12,934 bases of DNA. Source: Promethearchaeota archaeon. GTDB lineage: Archaea > Asgardarchaeota > Lokiarchaeia > Sigyniarchaeales > SOKP01. The stretch's first letter is position 1. Each line of letters starts with the position of its first letter. The DNA is taken from the NCBI GenBank assembly GCA_048938005.1, contig JBHLMQ010000073.1, positions 1 to 12,934 on the forward strand. Reading direction: 5' to 3'. The notes below the pieces were generated by a model. The model had not been told where the DNA came from and did no database searches. It saw nothing but the letters and a program-made list of their open reading frames with translations. Below are positions 279-11,143 of this stretch, piece after piece. The translations under genes and the position numbers were made by a program.

Positions 279-668
279 TTAGCCTAGAAGTGCAAAAATA
301 TCTTTTAACGCCATCATTTTTCTTAGACCACGCAATTTTATTTTACCAGTGATCCACTTTTTTAATAAAGTACCCGTAGATAAACCTTCACTAAATAAAT
401 TTAAGAACATTTCTGCGGGTGCTTCAAATAAAGAATCAAATTCCAAGGATTTTAAAGATTCTTTATCATTTCTAACACCTTCTACATCTAACGTCCCATT
501 TTCAATTTTTAGCAAAGCAGCCCATTTTTGATCTTTAGGATTTAATAAAATATAAAGACGTGTATCTCCAAACTTTTCTTTAAACTCTGGATTGAAATTT
601 ATAGGCTCAACAAATTGCCATATCAATCCAGCAAGACCTCTTTTTACTTTTACTTTTTTAATTGACAT
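279..668 (-). CDS. SCP2 (sterol carrier protein-2)-like lipid-binding domain protein
   Basis: 129 aa. The C-terminal WITGKIKLRG resembles the SCP2 'F/M-x-GKLKxxG' signature and is preceded by KIENG-type beta strands. Family assigned by eye. Confidence 0.65.
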   Translation of the reverse strand: MSIKKVKVKRGLAGLIWQFVEPINFNPEFKEKFGDTRLYILLNPKDQKWAALLKIENGTLDVEGVRNDKESLKSLEFDSLFEAPAEMFLNLFSEGLSTGTLLKKWITGKIKLRGLRKMMALKDIFALLG

Positions 669-773
669 TCAAGATCATTTGGTTTATATTTTTGATTATT
701 TATTTTATACTTCATTTCGTATTTTATTTCTTTATTATTTATCCTATTCTTGTTTTATTATATGGATTATAAT

Positions 774-2576
774 TTAAGGTATTTGTAATGCATGAGAAAA
801 TTCATGAGTAAATCTTGGATGGATAGTTAATTCAATGTATTTAACTCGATTGGCGATACTCTCAGCAATGGATCGTTGCTCCTTTGATAATAATGCAAGT
901 TTCGCTCCTGTTCCAGCAGCATTTCCCACTTGTACAAAGCGATTCAAAGGAATAGAAGGAAACAGGCCAATTTTAATAGCACTCTCCACATTTATGTAAG
1001 TACCAAAAGCTCCAGCGACTATGATTTTATCTATTTTCTCCTTACTAATACCACATTCATTAAGTAAAATGTTAATCCCAGTACGTATCGCGGCTTTAGC
1101 TAGCTGTATTTCACTTATATCGTGTTGATAAATGATTATATCTTGTTCGATTCCCGTATTATGCTTTGGAACCAAAAGAAATTCTCGAATATTTTTGGTT
1201 TGACGAACTAAATCGTGATTTTGTAATCTTCCACGCGAATCTATTATTTTTTGTTGACGTAATTGGCTAATTGCATCTAAAATACCAGATCCACATATAC
1301 CAATTGGAGCAACATCTCCAATAACTTTTAAAGCAACTTTATTATTTCTGATTTTTACTTTTTCGATTGCACCATTACTTGCTCTCATACCATGTTTGAT
1401 TCCGGCACCCTCAAAAGCAGGGCCAGAAGCACAAGAAAGACTGGTGATATCCCCTTTCACCGATAATGCCACTTCTGTATTAGTACCAATATCAATACCG
1501 ATAACATTTTTATTCGTTTTATAAATTTCTGTAGCAAGAAGCATAGCTACATGATCTGAACCTATAAAACCAGCTATATTTGGTAAAAAATGAATATATG
1601 CACCTTTAGCAACATTAAGCCCGAGATCACGGGCTTTTACATCTAAAGAATGACTAATAGCGGGTATATAAGGAGCTTGCCCTAATTGTTTTACAGGTAA
1701 ACCAATAAAAAGGTGATGCATTGCCGTGTTGCCAACTATAGTTACATCTACAACTTTTTCTATACTATCGGTTAATTCTTGAATTAATTTATTAAGAATA
1801 TTTAGAAGACATTTCCTCAATTGCTCATTCCCATTTTCCATGGCATAACTTATACGACTCATTACGTCCTCACCAAAAAAAATCTGGGGATTCGTTGCTC
1901 CTTTAATACCTATATTTTTTCCAGAATACAAATCCACTAAATAAACAGCCAGCTTAGTGGTACCAATATCAATTGCGATCCCATATAAGTCTTGATCTGG
2001 CTCATTAATCCCAATAACTTCATCATTTCGAATTAAAACTGAAATCTCCCTATTTAATTTGCGCAACCTAGATGATAGATTTTGTAAAAATGAAATATCT
2101 GGTATTAGATTCTTTAATCCATATTTATCGTCTAGCGATTTATATATATTTTCCCAATCAGATAATGGATTTTCCAAAGAAGGCTCTTGTAATTTTAACT
2201 TATATTTATTGATTATAGGGTTCAAAATTAAATGTGGTTCTTTTCCTAATAATTCTAATCGTTGGACAGCTGTCAGTGATATAAGGGGAATTTCGACCTT
2301 TATATCACTTAATACGCGCATAGTACATGCTAATCGATATTTGGATTTAATTTCTTCCTCACTTAAAAGATTTTTTTCATTTTTATTAATTGAGGATACA
2401 TTTCCATCAACGATACGTATTTTGCAACGACCACAAATTGCTTTTCCACCACAAAATGAAGCTATGGGAATCCCCACTTTTTCTGCAGCCTCGAAAATAG
2501 TTTTTCCTTTTATACAGGGAATATTAAGTCCAATTGGTTCAAAATAAATATTATAACTCATATATTCATCCTCCAT
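774..2576 (-). CDS. ATP-dependent reductive activator of corrinoid proteins (RACo/RACE, ASKHA ATPase with N-terminal [2Fe-2S] ferredoxin domain)
   Basis: N-terminal CGGKAICGRC...RLAC [2Fe-2S] motif. ASKHA motifs AIDIGTT, GEDVMSRI, GNTAMHHLF, DIGTNTE, SGPAFEG, GICGSG, QLAKAAI and AGAFG. The ATG abuts the upstream stop (TAAATG). Confidence 0.93.
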   Translation of the reverse strand: MEDEYMSYNIYFEPIGLNIPCIKGKTIFEAAEKVGIPIASFCGGKAICGRCKIRIVDGNVSSINKNEKNLLSEEEIKSKYRLACTMRVLSDIKVEIPLISLTAVQRLELLGKEPHLILNPIINKYKLKLQEPSLENPLSDWENIYKSLDDKYGLKNLIPDISFLQNLSSRLRKLNREISVLIRNDEVIGINEPDQDLYGIAIDIGTTKLAVYLVDLYSGKNIGIKGATNPQIFFGEDVMSRISYAMENGNEQLRKCLLNILNKLIQELTDSIEKVVDVTIVGNTAMHHLFIGLPVKQLGQAPYIPAISHSLDVKARDLGLNVAKGAYIHFLPNIAGFIGSDHVAMLLATEIYKTNKNVIGIDIGTNTEVALSVKGDITSLSCASGPAFEGAGIKHGMRASNGAIEKVKIRNNKVALKVIGDVAPIGICGSGILDAISQLRQQKIIDSRGRLQNHDLVRQTKNIREFLLVPKHNTGIEQDIIIYQHDISEIQLAKAAIRTGINILLNECGISKEKIDKIIVAGAFGTYINVESAIKIGLFPSIPLNRFVQVGNAAGTGAKLALLSKEQRSIAESIANRVKYIELTIHPRFTHEFSHALQIP

Positions 2577-3479
2577 TTAGAATATTTTGAAAATTGGATG
2601 GGTATTTGTTATTGGCCTTAATCCCCTCATTCGGTTTCCATAAGCAATGAGTCCATCAATTGTTGCCATTGCTGGATATACCCAACTTGCGTTTTTTATG
2701 GGACCATAGAGGCAAAAATCCGCTCCTAATAACCGTGTTATAGATATTACTGACGATGCCGCTGCTTGAAATGATGCCTTTCCCAATTGTTTCATTTTCT
2801 CCCAGGTATAGAGCGCATTAGCAGGAGCGCACCCTGTTGGATACCCGAATTTTTCTTTTATTTCACGAATGGCTAAAGATACCCAACTTACACTGGCGAC
2901 ATCCATCACTCCGGTGTCGATAAATATGTTTTCAATATCCGCTAATTTAGCAGCTCGTATCAAATTTTTTTCTAATAATTCTATTTTTCTTTCGGGTTTC
3001 ATCGCCTTCATACTAAAAGCAAGTAAAATAGCACTTTTTACTCCACACTCTTTTAAACAATTCAATTCTTTATCAGTGTGATCAACTCCGATACTGTTAT
3101 ATATCAATCGTGGAATTAATTCAGTACCGGCAAAATATTTTATTGTTTCAATCCTTACCTTCTGAGAAGAAGAATCAACAATTATTGGTGCAGAAGTTTG
3201 TGATGCTACGAATTCAATATATCTAATGAGAGCTTCTGCTGTTTCTCCAATTACATCAATAAATCTTGAGTTTCCCGTAAATTTCGCTATTTTTTCTTCA
3301 TTTTTCAATAAAATTTTTGCTTTTTCTTTGTCAAAAATCCCTTTTAATGGATCTTGAACAATTTTATCTCCTGCGAAAAATAAACTACCGATGAGTACTG
3401 TAGGTCGTTCCCATGGTTGTCCTCCAATCTCAACTCCTGCTATATTGTAAATTTTCTGATCTTTCAAAAATCTCAGCAT
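2577..3479 (-). CDS. mtrH: MtrH-family methylcorrinoid:tetrahydropterin (H4MPT/THF) methyltransferase (stand-alone, MtgA/MtoA-like)
   Basis: MtrH-typical N-terminus (IAGVEIGGQPWERPTVLIGSLFF), plus IYNSI, FIDTG, GYPTGCAPAN and GADFCLYGPI. AAGGTG RBS-like sequence upstream. No other mtr subunits are present. Confidence 0.9.
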   Translation of the reverse strand: MLRFLKDQKIYNIAGVEIGGQPWERPTVLIGSLFFAGDKIVQDPLKGIFDKEKAKILLKNEEKIAKFTGNSRFIDVIGETAEALIRYIEFVASQTSAPIIVDSSSQKVRIETIKYFAGTELIPRLIYNSIGVDHTDKELNCLKECGVKSAILLAFSMKAMKPERKIELLEKNLIRAAKLADIENIFIDTGVMDVASVSWVSLAIREIKEKFGYPTGCAPANALYTWEKMKQLGKASFQAAASSVISITRLLGADFCLYGPIKNASWVYPAMATIDGLIAYGNRMRGLRPITNTHPIFKIF

Positions 3480-3534
3480 TCTTGAGCACCTTAAAATAAT
3501 CCCTTGCTTCTAATAACGGAATACTAAAATTTGA

Positions 3535-4734
3535 TTATACAGGTATTTCTTTAGCTGTTTTTTCTTTCCATTCCTTAAATGTTTCGCGTTTAGGTAATTT
3601 GAATTCGACATCATCAAGATTATCAGATATTGGAAAGCGACCGTATGTATGTGTAGCAGCAATTGCAGCATGTATATGGTCAGGTGGGGCATCAGCAGGT
3701 ATATTTGCTAGAAAAATTGTCAAATTATGATCTCTGGCAAATGTATCAATGAATCTTTTAATATTGTCCACAATTTTTTCCACAGGTCCATCTCGTAGCA
3801 AACGACCATTAATTCCAGCTGCGATTGTGGGTTTGACACCTTTTTCTCGAAATTTTACAGTATAGTCTCTAACAGGTTCAAGTGGATATTCATGCCATCG
3901 TCCCATACCTAGAAATAGAGAAGGAATATCTCCTTGACTTGCTATTTCTATGTCAAATGAGTCATGAAGTATCTTAGTATCAAACTTTTCCAACCGTTCT
4001 TCACAGTAATCACCACTAATATTCATAGCCATTACTCCAAATTTTTTAGCTTTTTCGTTTATACGATTATTATAAGGCACAACCCACTCTTGCATGTCCT
4101 TAATAGATAGATTTGGAATACAAGCCCAGGCATCAGCACCTATAGCCATCATAATACCACAATAATCGTTTTGGGCTTTAAGATAAGGTTCTAATACATC
4201 ATCAACAATGAATGTATATATTTCATGGGCGAATTCAGGTTGCTTTCTCATGAATTTTATTAATCTTGGATATGAACACAGTCCTACAGCCATACTAAAC
4301 GGAGAACAGAATATTCCTTGAACTGTTCCATATTCCATATTTAAATTAATGCTTTCTAATGCATAAGGTAGCCTCCCATCTTTATACCAGTCAACTTCCT
4401 TTTTCTTAAGTTTGGATAAATCTTCAGGTTTTTTAATGAGGGTGTCACGAAAATCTATTGTTGGCATTGATTTTTCACCGTAAACCATTTTACCACCTAA
4501 AGCTTCTATCTCAAAATTATAAGCATCAGCAAAAGCAGCACATGTATCCATATTATAATAATTTGCTACATCGACCGATGTCTCAATCAAACAATTAGCA
4601 TCGTAATAAAATTTTTTAGCTGGGACACCAGCCACTGTCATGGAATGGTCATGCATCTGAGCAGCGATTTGAATCCAAGGTTTTTCCCCGCTTATAAGAA
4701 AACCAGCTAATCCTTCTATTTTTTCATCGGGCAA
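3535..4734 (-). CDS. Uroporphyrinogen-decarboxylase/MtaA/CmuA-fold corrinoid-dependent methyltransferase (probable substrate-specific MT1)
   Basis: 399 aa with YNFEIEALG, GRLPY, SPFSMA, LLRDGPVEKI and IPADAPPDHIHAAI, typical of the URO-D-like TIM barrel. TTG start with GGAGGTGG RBS (4741-4748) inside the end of the upstream gene. Sits in a corrinoid operon. Confidence 0.82.
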   Translation of the reverse strand: MPDEKIEGLAGFLISGEKPWIQIAAQMHDHSMTVAGVPAKKFYYDANCLIETSVDVANYYNMDTCAAFADAYNFEIEALGGKMVYGEKSMPTIDFRDTLIKKPEDLSKLKKKEVDWYKDGRLPYALESINLNMEYGTVQGIFCSPFSMAVGLCSYPRLIKFMRKQPEFAHEIYTFIVDDVLEPYLKAQNDYCGIMMAIGADAWACIPNLSIKDMQEWVVPYNNRINEKAKKFGVMAMNISGDYCEERLEKFDTKILHDSFDIEIASQGDIPSLFLGMGRWHEYPLEPVRDYTVKFREKGVKPTIAAGINGRLLRDGPVEKIVDNIKRFIDTFARDHNLTIFLANIPADAPPDHIHAAIAATHTYGRFPISDNLDDVEFKLPKRETFKEWKEKTAKEIPV

Positions 4735-4735
4735 T

Positions 4736-5395
4736 TTAGGCCACCTCCAAGGGTTTTTCTATAATTTTTTTAGCTTTTTCTACTGCATCAAATGCATCTT
4801 TCCCCCATGCATCAGCTCCTATTTCATCAGCAAATTCTTGAGTACAGGGGACTCCACCAATCATGACTTTAACATCGTTACGAATTCCATTTTCTTGAAG
4901 AGATTTGAGAATTTCTTTCATTTCCAACATAGTGGTTGTCATATAACAGCCAAGTCCTAAAATGTCGGGATTATATTCTTTTACTTTTTCTAAAAAGGTC
5001 GCTACTGGTATATCTTCTCCAATATCTATAACTTCAAATCCACCACTTCTCAACATAGCTTTAACCATTAATTTACCTAAAGTATGCATATCCCCTGCAA
5101 CTGTACCAATCACAACTCTTCCTGATCCTTTAAATTCCTGGGGTGATAATTTTGGTTCAATAACTTCCATTGCCATTCTAAATGCTTCTGCGCTCATCAC
5201 TATATCCGGTTGGAAATATTCATTCCGTTTCCATAATTCTCCAGCTTCTTGAATCCCAGGGACAATACCTTCCTTCATTATATTGATTGGTGCTTCACCA
5301 TTATCGAGAGCTTTCTGGGCCAATTCAAAAGCTAAATCATCATCACCTTTTAATACAGCTTCTTTTAAATCCTTTAAAATATTTGAATTAGTCAT
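4736..5395 (-). CDS. Methyltransferase cognate corrinoid (B12-binding) protein, MttC/MtbC/MtoC family
   Basis: N-terminal four-helix cap. B12-binding motif GTVAGDMHTLGK (DxHxxG), plus GLGCYMTTT and VMIGG...FADEIGADAW. AAGGAGG RBS upstream. Confidence 0.95.
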   Translation of the reverse strand: MTNSNILKDLKEAVLKGDDDLAFELAQKALDNGEAPINIMKEGIVPGIQEAGELWKRNEYFQPDIVMSAEAFRMAMEVIEPKLSPQEFKGSGRVVIGTVAGDMHTLGKLMVKAMLRSGGFEVIDIGEDIPVATFLEKVKEYNPDILGLGCYMTTTMLEMKEILKSLQENGIRNDVKVMIGGVPCTQEFADEIGADAWGKDAFDAVEKAKKIIEKPLEVA

Positions 5396-6316: not shown

Positions 6317-7102
6317 TTGATAATGGCTAAACATAAAGGAAGGAGAATGGAGGCTTTTTTCGGATTATTTGGAGCAATGTTTCTTATTATTATATTACCT
6401 TTAACAGCATATCTCACCCCTGGCTATACTCCATTGGAGCAGATGATAAGTAGCCTGGGGTACGGTAGAGCAAAATCTTTATTCAGTATTGGTTTTGTAG
6501 TTTCTGGTTCACTGTTAATCCCTTTTTATATTTATTTAGAAAGAGAACTAATAAATATAAAAGAAGTAGTTAGAAGAATTGCTACAGGAATTGCAATCAT
6601 TACTAACGTAGGTATCGCTTTAGTGGGTATAATACCTGATGAAACTATTATTGATGCTTTTAAGATATTTCATGGTATAGTCGCAGTAGTTAGTTTTACA
6701 GGATCATCAGTTTATATTGTACTGTATAGTGTATTAATGTATCAAGGTCCTAAATCTAAATTGTATAGAGGGCCAATTTTTAAAAGAATTTTAGCTTATT
6801 TTGGATTTTTATTAGGAATTTTAATGGTAATATATCTATTTGCACAGGTTCCTTTATTTGAATGGATTCTAACCATCCTTATGCTAATCTGGGTTCTAAA
6901 TGCAGCGATACAATCAATTTCTTTTAAATTTTTTAACATACCTGGAATGTATTATAAACGTTCTCAATTTCCTGAGGCTTTAGAACGATTTGAAAAAGCA
7001 TTTCAAGTTTTAGATAATCTTGGAATGAAAAATGATCCTATAGCAGAGACACTTCAAAAAAACATTGATTATATTAAGACTCAAATAGAAAAAAGTCAAT
7101 GA
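6317..7102 (+). CDS. DUF998-like multi-pass membrane protein with C-terminal TPR-like helical tail (start TTG 6317 or ATG 6323)
   Basis: About 6 hydrophobic segments. PGYTPLEQMISSLG and FHGIVAVVSF resemble DUF998 motifs. The soluble tail GMYYKRSQFPEALERFEKAFQV is TPR-like. Confidence 0.7.
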   Translation: MIMAKHKGRRMEAFFGLFGAMFLIIILPLTAYLTPGYTPLEQMISSLGYGRAKSLFSIGFVVSGSLLIPFYIYLERELINIKEVVRRIATGIAIITNVGIALVGIIPDETIIDAFKIFHGIVAVVSFTGSSVYIVLYSVLMYQGPKSKLYRGPIFKRILAYFGFLLGILMVIYLFAQVPLFEWILTILMLIWVLNAAIQSISFKFFNIPGMYYKRSQFPEALERFEKAFQVLDNLGMKNDPIAETLQKNIDYIKTQIEKSQ

Positions 7103-7368: not shown

Positions 7369-9339
7369 TTGTCTGAAAAACAGACCAATGAAGAAGAAAA
7401 TCAACCAAGAATAGGTGTGTTCGTGTGTCATTGAGGTATTAACATTGCGGGAATACTAGATATTCCAAAAATACTAGAAGAAATTAACAAACTGGATAAT
7501 GTTTGGGCTTATCCATATCTATCTTTATGCACTGAGGGCGGATCTACTGTAATCAAAGAAAAACATGAGGAGTTTAAATTCGATAGGGTTTTGGTTGCTG
7601 CTTGCACGCCAAGAACTCATCAACCAGTTTTTCATGCGATATTAACAGAGATGGGGTTACCTCCAAGATATTTAGAATTTGTCAACATACGAGAGCATTG
7701 TTCTTTCGTGCATCAAGCTCCAGAGGTTCGTGAGAAAGCTACTCTAAAAGCTATTGAATTAATCAAAGCTGGGATTGCCAGATCAAAATTATTAGAAGAT
7801 GTTCCAACTAAGACTGTTCCAGTAGAGCCTGCTGCTCTTGTAGTCGGTGGAGGTATTGCAGGATTATCTGCAGCAATCGATTTAGGTGATGCGGGATACA
7901 AGGTATATTTAGTAGAAAAGAATACGACGATAGGAGGACGTATGTCCCAACTTGATAGAACTTTTCCAACAGATGATTGTTCAATATGAATCTTGGGACC
8001 AAAAATGCTTGAAGCTAATCGCCATCCAAAAATAGAAATCTTATCATACAGCGAAATTGACGAAATAGATGGATATATTGGCAATTTTAAAGTTAAGGTT
8101 AGAAGAAAAGCCCGATTTGTCGATGAAAAAGAATGTACAGGTTGCGGATCATGCGCTGAAGTGTGTCCTGTATACACGAGCAATTACTTCGATGAACACT
8201 TATCAGCTAGAAAAGCTATTGATATTGCTTTTGCTCAAGCAGTTCCAGCAATTTCGCAACTTGATAGAGAAGTATGTATTGAATGTTTTGCATGTGTTGA
8301 TGCATGCGAACAACAAGCTATAGATTTTAGTCAACAAGATAAAATTGAGGAGCTTAAGGTCGGTACAATAATAATTGCTACAGGGTGGGACCTCTATAAG
8401 GGAGATGATTATGGTTATGGTATTTATGATAATGTAATCAATCAAATAGAATTAGAGAGAATTCTTGCTCCTAATGGTCCAACTTATGGTCATTTGAAGC
8501 GTCCTTCCGATGGCAAACGCCCTACAAAAGTATTGTTCATTAATTGCGTTGGATCAAGAGATATAAATAAAAATGCTCATTGCAGTGTTATCTGCTGTAA
8601 TTTATCCCTTAAAAATTCTAAATTAATCAAGTCAGAGTATCCTGATTCACAAATCGTTTGTTGTTATATAGACATGAGATGCGCTGGAAAAGACTATGAA
8701 GAATACTATAGAAGATCCCGAGATGCTGGAATAATATTTGTTAAAGGTATGGTTGGTAAAATTGAAGAGGATCCTTTAACAAAAAACCTTAAAGTACAAT
8801 TTGAACCAGTTGGAACTAATAGTGTAGTTTCTATGGAATTTCATATGGTTGTATTATCATCAGCATCATTACCATCTCAAGGTACGATAGAAATTGCTAA
8901 GGTATTAAACATGGAAAAAAGCCCTGATGGTTTCTTAAAAGAATATCATGCTCGGCTTGATCCAATTAGTACCAAAGTACCTGGTATTTACATTTGCGGT
9001 TCTGCTCAAGGTCAAAAAGAGATTGATAAAACAGTGAGTCAAGCGAGAGGAGCGGCATCAGTAGCAGGTATCCCAATGAGTAAAGGAGAATACACTATGG
9101 AATTAATCCGAGCTACAGCATCAGATGAACGCTGCGCTAAATGCTATAAATGTATAGAAGCCTGTCCATATACTGCTATTTCGGTAAATGAAAAAGGAAA
9201 TCTTGTTGTGGATCTAATTAATTGTCGGGGTTGCGGAACATGTGCGTCTTTATGTCCATCAAAAGCGATTGAACTAACGTACTTTAGAGATGATCAATAT
9301 ATGGCATTAATAGATGAATTATTACCAATTGAGGAGTAG
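7369..9339 (+). CDS. hdrA: Heterodisulfide reductase subunit A (FAD/Fe-S), selenoprotein with two in-frame UGA (Sec22 at 7432-7434, Sec207 at 7987-7989), 656 aa
   Basis: Single frame from TTG 7369 (AGGTGG RBS; GTG 7360 is an alternative start) to TAG 9339, interrupted only by TGA in RIGVFVCH-U-GINIAG and TFPTDDCSI-U-ILGPKM. Both are conserved Cys/Sec positions of HdrA. Also AACTPR, NIREHCS, GGGIAG (FAD), CVGSR...CSVICC and four ferredoxin CxxCxxCxxxC motifs. The ORF track splits this into 7591-7989 and 7993-9339. Confidence 0.95.
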
Positions 9340-9352
9340 AGAGGTAAGTAAA

Positions 9353-9811
9353 ATGGGAGAAGATAATGATATTAAAATAATTGTATATGCTTGCTGGAAA
9401 TGAGGATATGGTTCAGCAGATATGGCAGGTACCATTCGTGCACAATATCCCGATTCGATAAGAATTGTTTTGGTGCCATGTACTGGTCGTGTCGGATCTG
9501 ACTTAATAATGCGAGCGTTTGGTAGGGGTGCTGACGGTGTGGTCATTAATGCTTGATATCCGGGTGAATGTGATTATGAGACGGGAAATTACTATGCATA
9601 TCGACAAGTTGAATACATTAAAGAAATCTTAAAAGTTGTTGGAATAAGCCCTGAAAGAATTAAAATAATATATTGCACTGCAGCTGAAGGCCAGAAATTT
9701 CAAATAGAAGCTACAGAAATCGATAAAAATATTCGCAAATTAGGACAAAGCCCTTTACGTCCAAAAAAGAGCACGCCTAAAGAAAAAGCTAAAGCGAAAG
9801 CTGAAGCTTAA
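9353..9811 (+). CDS. mvhD: MvhD/VhuD [2Fe-2S] subunit, selenoprotein with two in-frame UGA (Sec17 at 9401-9403, Sec68 at 9554-9556), 152 aa
   Basis: Absent from the ORF track. Translation: MGEDNDIKIIVYACWK-U-GYGSADMAGTIRAQYPDSIRIVLVPCTGRV...GADGVVINA-U-YPGECDYETGNY...GISPERI...CTAAEG...LGQSPL. This matches the MvhD motifs CxxC-Y-xADxAG, CxGR and GADGV..GCxxGxCxY. GAGGT RBS at 9341-9345; TAA stop. Confidence 0.95.
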
Positions 9812-9819
9812 AAAATTTA

Positions 9820-9892
9820 ATGTGTTTACTGATGAGACTGAGTTAAAAAAATGAGAACTCAGTTGAGGAAATGGGAGCACCATATGACACAT
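9820..9892 (+). promoter_or_regulatory. Eukaryote-type SECIS element in the 3' UTR of hdrA-mvhD
   Basis: ATGA (9832-9835), G, ACTGAGTT (9837-9844), loop AAAAAAATGAG, AACTCAGT (9856-9863), T, GA (9865-9866), G. This gives an AUGAN/NGAN core, a perfect 8-bp helix plus G-U, and an A-rich apical loop. A lower helix is possible via GTGTTT/GAGCAC or ATGTGT/ACACAT. The core starts about 20 nt after the mvhD stop. Confidence 0.8.
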
Positions 9893-9904
9893 ATAAAAGG
9901 TTTA

Positions 9905-9937
9905 ATGAAAATTAATAAAAAATTTTAATAATTTGAA
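9905..9937 (+). promoter_or_regulatory. Possible second tandem SECIS-like hairpin
   Basis: ATGA (9905-9908), AAATTAATAA, loop AAAATT, TTAATAATTT, GA (9935-9936). Nine of ten positions pair between the AUGA and GA cores, but all pairs are A-U. Confidence 0.35.
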
Positions 9938-10003
9938 TCAAAAAATTTGGGAAATTTAAGAAAAGAGTAAATAAATCAAGTATATATTTTGAGTTGGAAG
10001 TAC

Positions 10004-11143
10004 ATGGAAGCAATGGCAGAATACCTGATAAAAATTGAAGATTTTTCTAAAATCTTAGCAACTCTATTAAAAGAAAAAGTAGTAGATAAAATTATTGGCG
10101 CTCAATTGAGAGTCGATAAAAAATCTGGTAATATAGATAGATTTACTGTTCAACCAAAATTAGCAGAAAAAGAAGAGGATGTGAAGGATTTTCCACTAAC
10201 ACCTCTAATTGCTTTTGGATATGCAAGAACAGATTCAGCTTCAAAATTCTTGCATAAATCAGTAGCAGGTGCAATGAAAGAGAAAGTGGGACTTATCGCA
10301 CGCCCTTGTGATACAAGAGCATTAATAGAACTTGCCAAAATCAAGCAGGTAAATCTAGATAATCTATTTATAATTGGTATCGAAGATAGAGGTATGTTAC
10401 CTAAAGCAGGACGAGAAATGAGATCAGTAAAGGATGTTGATGCTACTAAAATAGTTAAGGAAAAGGTAGGTGATAAAGGTCTTGTTGTTAAAATGGAAGA
10501 TGGAAGCACAAAAGAACTAAATCTGACTGTGGCAGAGAATTGTTTGAGATGTTATCGAAAAATTCCTGTTGTTGCTGATTTAACAGTTAGTGATCTTGGA
10601 ATTTCAATCGATTCAGATGAGATTATCTTAAAAGTATATTCAGATAAAGGAAGTGATATTTTAGATAAATCAGGTATCAATAAAAAATCACTTCCAGATA
10701 AGGAGAAAAAGACACATACAGATAAATATAATGAAATTATTGAAAAAGCGAAAGAAAAAAGAGAAAAAGATTTGGCAGAATGGGAAAAATTATCACAAGA
10801 AGAAAAAATTGCTGAATTACTGAAGTGCACAGCATGTAACACATGTATAAGAGGGTGTCCAGTTTGCTACTGCGTGGATTGTATCCTAATGAAGAAGAGA
10901 AAAGAGAAAACAATAGATGCAGCAACCTATCAACTCACAAGAATTGCTCACGATGCTGACAGATGCGTTGAATGCGGTAATTGCGATAATAATTGCCCTC
11001 AGAATTTACCATTATCGCTCTATTTTCAATCATTAAATGAAGCTTTTAAGGAGAAATTCAAGTATGAAGCAGGAATGTCTCTTGAGGATATTCCATTTAG
11101 GTCTGGAAAGGCAATATCCCAGATGGAATTAGAAAAAACATAA
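10004..11143 (+). CDS. FdhB/FrhB-like Fe-S protein (F420-dependent dehydrogenase beta-subunit family with C-terminal 2x[4Fe-4S]); start 9989, 10004 or 10013
   Basis: GLIARPCDTRALIEL, ENCLRC...VADL, CTACNTCIRGCPVCYCVDC and RIAHDADRCVECGNCDNNCP match the motif order of methanogen FdhB-type proteins. Lies downstream of hdrA-mvhD. Confidence 0.8.
   Translation: MEAMAEYLIKIEDFSKILATLLKEKVVDKIIGAQLRVDKKSGNIDRFTVQPKLAEKEEDVKDFPLTPLIAFGYARTDSASKFLHKSVAGAMKEKVGLIARPCDTRALIELAKIKQVNLDNLFIIGIEDRGMLPKAGREMRSVKDVDATKIVKEKVGDKGLVVKMEDGSTKELNLTVAENCLRCYRKIPVVADLTVSDLGISIDSDEIILKVYSDKGSDILDKSGINKKSLPDKEKKTHTDKYNEIIEKAKEKREKDLAEWEKLSQEEKIAELLKCTACNTCIRGCPVCYCVDCILMKKRKEKTIDAATYQLTRIAHDADRCVECGNCDNNCPQNLPLSLYFQSLNEAFKEKFKYEAGMSLEDIPFRSGKAISQMELEKT

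What the first reader, a model, noticed from the sequence alone, without database searches (positions are those of the whole stretch)
7369..9937. Hidden two-gene, four-selenocysteine operon (hdrA 2xSec + mvhD 2xSec) apparently decoded from a distal eukaryote-type 3' SECIS
Seen: four in-frame TGA codons (7432, 7987, 9401, 9554), each at a conserved Cys position. The true stops are TAG and TAA. Only 13 nt separate hdrA and mvhD, too little for an intergenic SECIS. An AUGA/AA/GA hairpin follows mvhD. Known: HdrA and VhuD are selenoproteins in Methanococcales, and eukaryote-like SECIS elements have been described in Lokiarchaeota. Inference: the 3' SECIS region must recode UGAs in two cistrons, the first about 2.4 kb upstream and across a termination/re-initiation event. 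That is a eukaryote-style recoding element working on a polycistronic mRNA. Standard gene callers would report fragments or pseudogenes and miss mvhD entirely.
Basis: partly seen in the sequence, partly recalled or inferred. Interest (0 to 1): 0.9.

Follow-up and report, generated by a model that had tools for sequence, protein, structure and literature searches.

The report
Two selenoprotein genes sharing one SECIS
Two adjacent archaeal redox genes (hdrA and mvhD) each carry two UGA codons read as selenocysteine, apparently served by one RNA hairpin behind the second gene; the arrangement is real but was already described for Lokiarchaeota in 2016.

Summary
hdrA (7369-9339, TAG stop) has in-frame TGA at 7432 and 7987. 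mvhD/vhuD (9353-9811, TAA stop) has TGA at 9401 and 9554. The gap between them is 13 nt. A hairpin at 9832-9866, 20 nt after the mvhD stop, has all the published features of a 'lokiSECIS': AUGA, 9-bp stem, 11-nt A-rich loop ending AG, then GA.

The genome holds tRNA-Sec, SepSecS, a PSTK-like gene, two Sec-containing selD genes and a SelB-like factor, and TGA otherwise works as a stop. In 26 orthologous loci all four TGA codons, the 10-19-nt gap and an ~80-nt 3' element are conserved. I found no second SECIS-like element in hdrA or upstream of it. So the shared-SECIS reading is the best-supported inference.

It is not new. Mariotti et al. 2016 (PMC4989117) state that Lokiarchaeal HdrA-VhuD pairs share a single lokiSECIS downstream of VhuD on a probable polycistronic mRNA. 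Huang et al. 2024 repeat this for Asgard MAGs. There is still no experimental proof.

Two modest additions: this element is a divergent sequence class, and lokiSECIS elements here look like three-way junctions with a mini-hairpin 3' of the GA. Seen in passing: a candidate Sec-Sec protein family elsewhere in the genome.

The parts
7369..9339 (+). hdrA (heterodisulfide-reductase subunit A-like flavo-iron-sulfur protein), 656 aa with 2 Sec. The start is TTG 7369 or GTG 7360; the stop is TAG.
   Evidence: Orthologues are 75-95% identical.
7432..7434 (+). UGA/Sec codon 22 of hdrA, 2400 nt upstream of the SECIS AUGA
   Evidence: TGA in 27 of 27 orthologous genes. It aligns with Cys in solved HdrA.
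7987..7989 (+). UGA/Sec codon 207 of hdrA (the canonical HdrA Sec site), 1845 nt upstream of the SECIS
   Evidence: TGA in 27 of 27. It aligns with X in 9sfi_A. Mariotti 2016 gives the canonical position as about 200.
9340..9352 (+). 13-nt intercistronic gap with a Shine-Dalgarno-like GAGGT
   Evidence: The gap is 10-19 nt in the 26 orthologous loci. Synonymous diversity is reduced at the hdrA 3' end and the mvhD 5' end.
9353..9811 (+). mvhD/vhuD (FlpD family iron-sulfur subunit), 152 aa with 2 Sec, TAA stop
9401..9403 (+). UGA/Sec codon 17 of mvhD, 431 nt upstream of the SECIS
   Evidence: 27 of 27 orthologues. Cys in 9sw2_D.
9554..9556 (+). UGA/Sec codon 68 of mvhD, 278 nt upstream of the SECIS
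   Evidence: 27 of 27 orthologues. Cys in 9sw2_D.
9818..9897 (+). Full conserved 3' element, predicted to fold as a three-way junction:
- P1: 9820-9826 with 9886-9892
- AUGA: 9832-9835
- P2: 9836-9844 with 9856-9864
- 11-nt loop: 9845-9855
- GA: 9865-9866
- P3 mini-hairpin: 9871-9874 with 9880-9883
   Evidence: Model R2, built from 26 orthologues without the window, scores it 103.3 bits, E 1e-25. It is the only hit in the window and in the genome. The free MFE fold gives P1, P2 and P3.
9832..9866 (+). lokiSECIS core: AUGA, 9-bp stem, 11-nt apical loop, GA
   Evidence: The defining features are quoted from Mariotti 2016.
9944..9964 (+). Semi-conserved A/T-rich block with a TTTAAG-type box about 40 nt before the next gene's ATG. 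It may be that gene's own promoter, which would place the SECIS in a true 3' UTR.
   Evidence: Spacer alignment of 29 loci. This is inference only.
9989..11143 (+). FrhB/FdhB-like iron-sulfur protein gene (the likely start is the conserved ATG at 10004). It is a conserved downstream neighbour and has no in-frame TGA.
   Evidence: Pfam FrhB_FdhB_C plus Fer4. It lies on the same strand 114-190 nt after mvhD in 28 of 29 loci.

Best explanation
This is a bicistronic selenoprotein operon of a Lokiarchaeia-type Asgard archaeon.

hdrA and mvhD/vhuD encode two subunits of a flavin-based electron-bifurcating Hdr/Mvh-type module. Each has two UGA codons decoded as selenocysteine at positions that are Cys (or Sec) in relatives. 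Both cistrons are read from one mRNA. mvhD initiates at its own Shine-Dalgarno site 13 nt after the hdrA stop.

One eukaryote-like SECIS (a 'lokiSECIS') lies 20 nt behind the mvhD stop. It recruits the Sec-specific elongation factor with Sec-tRNA(Sec) to ribosomes at all four UGAs, 278 to 2400 nt upstream.

Shown here:
- the genes, codons, hairpin and their conservation;
- the Sec machinery;
- no detectable second SECIS.

Inferred:
- co-transcription;
- that this hairpin is the functional SECIS for both cistrons;
- the mode of action at a distance. No SBP2-like adaptor is known in these archaea (Mariotti 2016, discussion passage seen).
For: Genes and codons.

Sec machinery in the same genome:
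- tRNA-Sec, 61.7 bits, anticodon TCA;
- SepSecS next to it;
- a PSTK-like gene (146 bits);
- two selD genes, each with one TGA;
- a SelB-like factor (232 bits, best family selB).

UGA is normally a stop. It ends 202 of 1546 frames of 300 codons or more, and none of the 9 other genes of the window has an in-frame TGA.

Purifying selection, from 26 orthologous loci plus the window:
- hdrA TGA at both sites in 27 of 27, and mvhD TGA at both sites in 27 of 27;
- extra hdrA sites that are TGA in 3 or 4 genomes and Cys in the rest;
- no hdrA with a TGA at its end;
- a gap of 10-19 nt.

The SECIS meets all the published lokiSECIS features. The pattern occurs 6 times in the genome against 0 in 10 simulated genomes. 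The ~80-nt element is present in 26 of 26 full orthologous loci, with 2 stem pairs showing compensatory changes in 8 cells.

Only one element: model R2 finds 9818-9897 and nothing else on the + strand above 9.1 bits. R1 finds nothing convincing in hdrA or its leader; the best hit is 9.4 bits, E 0.9, among 25 noise hits. Synonymous diversity dips only at gene ends, not after the UGAs.

Within the same genome three more Sec-hdrA/Sec-mvhD pairs have one lokiSECIS after mvhD. One Sec-hdrA without mvhD has a lokiSECIS 11 nt after its own stop. So a 3' element about 2 kb from the first UGA is the rule for hdrA here.

The literature reaches the same conclusion from other genomes.
Against: - No transcript, Sec-peptide or reporter data exist. 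No RNA run could be listed, so co-transcription is inferred only from spacing.
- Model R1, built from the seven other lokiSECIS elements of this genome, scores this element at only 5.4 bits, against 55-62 bits for its training set. R1 did not list it in the whole-window search. By that test it is not a typical member in sequence.
- Rfam has no matching SECIS family at E up to 10.
- Within the orthologues, P1 and P3 never vary, so they give no covariation evidence.
- A structured element unlike either model inside hdrA cannot be strictly excluded.
- The next gene follows on the same strand in 28 of 29 loci. The transcript could therefore be longer, and the SECIS intercistronic rather than in a 3' UTR.
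Confidence: 0.85

Rival explanations
1. hdrA has its own, so far unrecognised recoding signal. This could be a structure inside the coding region, the 5' leader or the mvhD coding region, or a local Sec-redefinition element. The 3' hairpin would then serve mvhD only.
For: The 2.4-kb distance and the crossing of a stop/start boundary have no experimental precedent. Synonymous diversity is low over hdrA codons 10-28, just before the first UGA. R1 gives a weak hit at 7456-7492 (9.4 bits, E 0.9).
Against: - The dip at codons 10-28 lies at the gene's 5' end, where such dips are usual, and diversity is above average right after the UGA.
- There is no dip around UGA 207.
- The R1 hit is one of 25 hits at noise level.
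- R2 finds nothing else.
- Mariotti 2016 report that RNAz found no other conserved structure in these genes.
- The mvhD-less hdrA on contig 78 has a lokiSECIS at its own 3' end.
Confidence: 0.07
2. The two genes are on separate transcripts, or the SECIS acts in trans, so that 'one SECIS on a polycistronic mRNA' is wrong even though both proteins contain Sec.
For: No transcript data exist. Archaeal internal promoters are common.
Against: The 13-nt gap (10-19 nt in 26 orthologues) leaves no room for a terminator plus a promoter. An hdrA-only mRNA would carry no SECIS at all.
Confidence: 0.05
3. The TGAs are real stops (pseudogenes or fragments), or UGA is reassigned genome-wide to another amino acid.
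For: Database entries of related proteins are often truncated at TGA or read it as W (for another family).
Against: - The frames stay open and 75-95% identical downstream of every TGA in 27 of 27 loci.
- TGA alternates with Cys at two further sites.
- TGA ends 13% of long frames.
- tRNA-Sec and the Sec pathway are present.
Confidence: 0.01

Closest known systems
Lokiarchaeota HdrA-VhuD pairs with a single shared lokiSECIS (Mariotti et al. 2016, PMC4989117; extended to Asgard MAGs by Huang et al. 2024, PMC11227280)
   Same: Gene order, very short gap, multi-Sec HdrA that includes the canonical site, two Sec in VhuD about 50 codons apart, HdrA never ending in UGA, and one AUGA / 9-bp / 11-nt-loop / GA element just after VhuD.
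   Different: In kind, nothing differs. This element's sequence is far from the seven other lokiSECIS of the same genome (5.4 bits with R1). The same genome also has one Sec-hdrA without vhuD, whereas the 2016 text says all pairs are tandem. The P1 and P3 helices are not mentioned in the text I could read; figures and supplements were not visible.
Methanococcales/Methanopyrus hdrA and vhuD with archaeal-type SECIS
   Same: Same two selenoprotein families in the same order. The 3' SECIS and the AUGA...GA motif at the VhuD element are as reported by Mariotti 2016.
   Different: According to those passages each gene there has its own GAA_A-type SECIS and HdrA has one Sec. Here there are two Sec in HdrA and one eukaryote-like element for both genes.
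Eukaryotic type I SECIS (kink-turn AUGA...GA core, AAR apical motif; bound by SBP2)
   Same: AUGA/GA core, A-rich start of the apical loop, 3' location, and action at kilobase distance.
   Different: The stem is shorter (9 bp). No Rfam SECIS family matches at E up to 10. No SBP2 is known in these archaea (paper passage). It acts across two cistrons. There is an extra mini-hairpin (P3) between the GA and the lower stem.
Bacterial SECIS (hairpin immediately 3' of each UGA inside the coding region, bound by SelB)
   Same: It recodes UGA to Sec.
   Different: No conserved or synonymous-constrained segment follows any of the four UGAs. The element is distal and non-coding.

Membership tests
lokiSECIS (Mariotti 2016) | AUGA immediately 5' of the main stem | tested here: met
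   9832-9835
lokiSECIS (Mariotti 2016) | 9-bp stem and 11-nt apical loop | tested here: met
   9836-9844 pairs with 9856-9864 (8 Watson-Crick pairs plus 1 G-U). The loop is 9845-9855.
lokiSECIS (Mariotti 2016) | First five loop bases A; last loop base G, mostly preceded by A | tested here: met
   The loop starts with seven A and ends AG.
lokiSECIS (Mariotti 2016) | GA (or AA) directly 3' of the stem | tested here: met
   9865-9866 is GA.
lokiSECIS (Mariotti 2016) | Located just downstream of a selenoprotein coding sequence; for HdrA-VhuD only after VhuD | tested here: met
   It lies 20 nt after the mvhD stop, and no other element is found.
lokiSECIS (Mariotti 2016) | Recognised by a covariance model of other lokiSECIS elements | tested here: not met
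   My own model R1, built from 7 elements of this genome, gives 5.4 bits and did not list it in the window scan. R1 is sequence-heavy: its columns are 78% identical on average. The authors' own model was not available.
lokiSECIS (Mariotti 2016) | Supports Sec insertion | not testable with these tools
   Needs a reporter assay or proteomics.
HdrA (heterodisulfide reductase subunit A) | Full-length similarity to characterised HdrA; FAD/NAD-binding and 4Fe-4S domains; Sec/Cys at the canonical site | tested here: met
   9sfi_A at 1.1e-208 over residues 12-652. U207 lies opposite X. Pfam Fer4 and Pyr_redox families match. The NCBIfam HdrA2/HdrA models are the best hits but score below their cut-offs: 742 against 1100 bits. 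Those models are 762-777 positions long and include a C-terminal MvhD-like part.
MvhD/VhuD (Pfam FlpD, PF02662) | FlpD domain above the gathering score; two Sec/Cys sites about 50 codons apart | tested here: met
   141.6 bits against a cut-off of 22.3. U17 and U68 lie opposite Cys. NCBIfam VhuD gives 138.5 bits, below its cut-off of 215.
Eukaryotic SECIS (Rfam SECIS families) | Match to the curated covariance model | tested here: not met
   No SECIS family is among the 10 hits at E up to 10.
Sec-decoding organism | tRNA-Sec, PSTK, SepSecS, SelD and a Sec-specific elongation factor present | tested here: met
   PSTK and SelB are the best-scoring families but fall below NCBIfam's equivalog cut-offs.

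The most novel reading that the evidence does not exclude
The Lokiarchaeal SECIS may not be a simple eukaryote-like stem-loop. It may be a three-way junction: a lower closing stem (P1), the kink-turn stem (P2), and a short G-C-containing mini-hairpin (P3) that starts 3-5 nt after the GA.

P1 and P3 differ in sequence between paralogous elements but keep pairing. Examples of P3 arms are ACCC/GGGU, AGGA/UCCU, CCUU/AAGG, and here AUGG/CCAU.

If P3 is real and undescribed, it is a candidate docking site for the unknown factor that replaces SBP2. That factor would let one element serve UGAs 2.4 kb away in another cistron.
Probability: 0.35. Interest if true: 0.5.

Novelty: already known. Interest (0 to 1): 0.25.

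Why it matters
The arrangement bears on how a eukaryote-type, distance-independent SECIS arose in archaea, and on how one RNA element can serve several UGAs across a cistron boundary. Those points were made in 2016 and remain experimentally untested.

This window adds a clean, well-conserved example: 27 orthologous loci with all four UGAs kept. It also gives a precise ~80-nt element to test, and a hint that the functional unit is larger than the published core hairpin.

In practice it shows that table-11 gene calling breaks hdrA in two and loses mvhD in such genomes.

Tried and rejected
- Rfam scan of the whole window at E up to 10 found no SECIS family, only noise.
- ARAGORN found no tRNA in the window.
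- Model R1, built from the seven other lokiSECIS of the genome, failed to find the window's element. I kept this as evidence that the sequence is divergent, not as evidence against a SECIS.
- My strict pattern finder found the element in only 18 of 29 orthologous loci (L033-L061) because of a bulged U, longer A runs or a G at loop position 1. An anchor-based extraction then showed it in 26 of 26 full loci.
- MAFFT misaligned the window element against the paralogous ones (A1). I did not use that alignment for counts.
- Public RNA runs: no RNA holder listed.
- I did not use scan_promoters_terminators, because it models bacterial sigma-70 sites.
- I considered the second AUGA hairpin at 9905-9937 inside the finding's range and dropped it. 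It is low-complexity A/T, scores 9.2 bits with R1 (E 1.1) and is not conserved.
- I rejected a genome-wide UGA reassignment and a pseudogene reading.
- For the Sec-Sec family seen in passing, Foldseek against the PDB gave only weak beta-grasp matches (best E 1.2e-3) and Pfam gave nothing.
- Supplements and figures of Mariotti 2016 (S4 SECIS alignments, Fig. 4C) and Huang 2024 (Tables S3-S5, Fig. S11) could not be seen. They may already show the P1/P3 helices, this very locus, or the extra families.
- One search for the word 'lokiSECIS' found only the 2016 paper.
Full report
WHAT IS THERE. Reading TGA as Sec joins the table-11 fragments into two genes.
- hdrA runs 7369-9339 (656 aa, TAG stop) with TGA at 7432 and 7987.
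- mvhD/vhuD runs 9353-9811 (152 aa, TAA stop) with TGA at 9401 and 9554.
- The 13-nt gap between them carries a GAGGT.

Gene 2 is a clear FlpD/MvhD protein (Pfam 1.6e-41). Gene 1 aligns over its whole length with solved HdrA chains (9sfi_A, 1.1e-208), and its best NCBIfam families are HdrA2 and HdrA. U207 lies opposite an 'X' in 9sfi_A, which I take to be the deposited Sec. U22 of HdrA and U17/U68 of MvhD lie opposite Cys.

On the other strand upstream lie genes for a corrinoid methyltransferase system: RACo, MtrH, a URO-D-type methyltransferase and a B12-binding protein. Downstream lies an FrhB/FdhB-like iron-sulfur protein.

THE GENOME DECODES SEC AND OTHERWISE STOPS AT UGA. The window is contig 21 of a 3.72-Mb assembly with 29.8% G+C. 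The assembly holds:
- a tRNA-Sec (61.7 bits, anticodon TCA);
- SepSecS beside it;
- a PSTK-like gene;
- two tandem selD genes, each with one TGA;
- a SelB-like factor on the same contig as tRNA-Sec.
PSTK and SelB are the best-scoring families for their ORFs but lie below NCBIfam's strict cut-offs.

TGA ends 202 of 1546 frames of 300 codons or more. One window gene (6317-7102) ends in TGA. None of the nine other window genes (2728 codons) has an in-frame TGA.

THE HAIRPIN. Twenty nucleotides after the mvhD stop come AUGA (9832-9835), a 9-bp stem, an 11-nt loop that starts with seven A and ends AG, and then GA (9865-9866). These are, point for point, the features that Mariotti et al. 2016 list for the 'lokiSECIS' (section read). 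The strict pattern occurs six times in the genome, every time just 3' of an ORF with in-frame TGA. It occurs zero times in each of ten first-order Markov genomes.

CONSERVATION. A protein search with MvhD in 60 relatives found 28 close orthologues in the same genus, all with two TGA. I fetched 26 complete hdrA-mvhD loci. Counting the window as well:
- both hdrA TGA and both mvhD TGA are present in 27 of 27;
- two further hdrA sites are TGA in 3 and 4 genomes and Cys in all the others;
- no hdrA has a TGA at its end;
- the gap is 10-19 nt.

An ~80-nt element is present behind mvhD in 26 of 26 loci. In the alignment 98.6% of cells are paired. Two P2 pairs show changes on both sides (8 cells). 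P1 and P3 never vary, which says nothing either way about pairing but shows strong constraint in a non-coding stretch. Model R2, built from these 26 without the window, finds 9818-9897 at 103.3 bits (E 1e-25). It finds nothing else in the window or the genome.

IS THERE A SECOND SECIS FOR hdrA? I found none.
- R2's next + strand hits are 9.1 bits or less.
- R1 was built from the seven other lokiSECIS of this genome. In the window it gives only noise: 25 hits at E up to 10. The best inside hdrA is 7456-7492 at 9.4 bits, E 0.9.
- Synonymous diversity along the 27 orthologues (mean 0.43) dips more than 2 sd for a run of windows only at the hdrA 5' end (codon columns 10-28), the hdrA 3' end, the mvhD 5' end and the mvhD 3' end next to the SECIS. 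Two single windows in mid-gene (starting at columns 317 and 437) also fall just below the line. No dip follows either hdrA UGA.
- The same genome has three more Sec-hdrA/Sec-mvhD pairs, each with one lokiSECIS after mvhD. In one of them the UGA of AUGA is the likely mvhD stop.
- One Sec-hdrA without mvhD has a lokiSECIS 11 nt behind its own stop.

A RESULT AGAINST A SIMPLE FILING. R1 scores its own seven elements at 55-62 bits but scores the window's element at 5.4 bits, and it did not list that element in the whole-window scan. So the element meets the published descriptive definition but is a separate sequence class, tied to this orthologue group within one genus. R1-type elements occur in 41 of 41 genomes of the same family that were searched, and in 0 of 19 genomes from other families of the order (stricter filters).

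HOW IT MOST LIKELY WORKS. One mRNA carries both cistrons. Ribosomes on hdrA meet UGA 22 and 207, terminate at UAG, and mvhD is initiated 13 nt later. The 3' element brings the Sec-specific factor with Sec-tRNA(Sec) to ribosomes at all four UGAs, 2400, 1845, 431 and 278 nt upstream.

The genes, the element and their conservation are shown. Co-transcription, function of the element, and the adaptor are inferred. The FrhB-like gene follows on the same strand in 28 of 29 loci; the 29th contig ends. The spacer holds a semi-conserved TTTAAG-type block about 40 nt before that gene's ATG. I read this as its own promoter, but a longer transcript is not excluded.

COMPARISON WITH WHAT IS KNOWN. Mariotti et al. 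2016 (passages and section 11 read) state the following:
- HdrA has up to four Sec, including the canonical site near position 200;
- VhuD has two Sec;
- only one lokiSECIS is found, downstream of VhuD;
- the element would serve up to six UGA over about 2 kb;
- HdrA always ends in UAA or UAG.

Huang et al. 2024 (passages) find hdrA-frhD always adjacent in Asgard MAGs, with almost all pairs sharing one eSECIS-like structure. A 2026 review (passages) summarises this. No experimental test turned up in the papers I read.

WHAT MAY BE NEW.

(a) The divergent sequence class noted above.

(b) A larger architecture, seen in several ways:
- Free MFE folds give a lower stem P1, the SECIS stem P2 and a mini-hairpin P3 just 3' of the GA in 6 of 8 elements of this genome, and in 17 of 27 distinct elements from eight genera.
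- With P2 fixed, 25 of 34 elements fold this way, against 17% of flank-shuffled controls. The median z is -1.83, and 15 of 34 are below -2.
- A stem of 4 bp or more with at least two G-C pairs, starting within 6 nt of the GA, is present in 31 of 34 elements against 30% of shuffles. There are 29 different stem sequences.
- A cruder measure separates less well: any 4-bp hairpin occurs in 32 of 34 elements against 76% of shuffles.
The elements are related, so these numbers overstate independence.

Neither paper's text mentions such a hairpin. Huang's model has a lower stem and an internal loop. Their figures and supplements were not visible.

VERDICT. The feature itself is ordinary for this lineage.

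OTHER NOTES. The notebook holds the running record.

Noticed in passing
Own genome, contig 17: G000:C17:134497-134973 (+) = L027:1498-1974; SECIS at C17:134982: A 158-aa ORF with two ADJACENT in-frame TGA (...HAD-U-U-AD...), a TAA stop and an R1-type lokiSECIS 8 nt downstream.

- No Pfam family at E up to 1.
- 191 database relatives, mostly 118-aa 'hypothetical proteins' of Asgard-labelled MAGs cut exactly at the first TGA. The few full-length entries read WW there, probably TGA called as W; I did not check this on DNA.
- Found in 38 of 201 genomes of the phylum that were searched: 36 of 40 in the own family, 1 of 3 in a second family, and 0 elsewhere.
- 52 of the 53 listed matches have 2-3 TGA; the other is a fragment at a contig end. 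No Cys form was seen.
- Many matches have an R1 SECIS hit just downstream.
- The AlphaFold model (pLDDT 76) gives weak beta-grasp matches to Urm1 and SAMP1, with the dyad right after the last strand.
- Neighbours are ArsR, an SBF/ACR3-like transporter, a 96-aa CxC ORF and SAM methyltransferases. The transporter is kept in 6 of 11 relatives' loci and the 96-aa ORF in 8 of 11.

The family is not among the 11 archaeal selenoprotein families listed in a 2026 review (passages), and it is not PrxL. It is a candidate obligate Sec-Sec selenoprotein family that Sec/Cys-homology pipelines would miss.
   Followed up: partly
Own genome: G000:C73:12141-12278 (+) and G000:C80:580-816 (-): Two further lokiSECIS-linked small ORFs with one in-frame TGA each. 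One is a 45-aa membrane peptide ending ...GUGG, with the SECIS 86 nt downstream. The other is a 78-aa membrane protein with a T-U-P-S-T-C motif, with the SECIS 20 nt downstream. Neither has a significant Pfam family, and neither has a tblastn hit in the 30 R1 loci of relatives.
   Followed up: partly
Own genome: G000:C78:7075-9162 (+) (L026): A Sec-containing hdrA (2 TGA) with no mvhD behind it and its own lokiSECIS (AA instead of GA) 11 nt after the stop. This is an exception to the published statement that all Loki HdrA/VhuD genes are tandem pairs.
   Followed up: partly
window 9898-11143 and loci L033-L061: hdrA-mvhD-SECIS is followed on the same strand by an FrhB/FdhB-like iron-sulfur gene in 28 of 29 loci, with a 114-190-nt spacer. 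A semi-conserved block at 9944-9964 is a possible promoter. Together the three genes look like a split HdrA2-type module with an F420H2-type input subunit. That last point is recalled from the literature on Methanosarcina HdrA2 and was not tested.
   Followed up: partly
Own genome: contigs 12 and 63: Many Cys-type HdrA-like genes, split or rearranged into three ORFs each, lie in repeated clusters, each followed by a Cys-type mvhD. Examples are C12:28864-45423 and C63:17960-21334 and 80099-87311.
   Followed up: no
Own genome: G000:C86:1934-4019 (-): Two tandem selD genes, each with one in-frame TGA. Multiple selD copies in Loki/Thor genomes are noted by Huang 2024.
   Followed up: no
window 279-5395 (- strand): A corrinoid methyltransferase cluster: RACo activase, an MtrH-like gene, a URO-D/MtaA-like gene and a B12-binding protein. 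The DUF998 gene at 6317-7102 ends in TGA.
   Followed up: no
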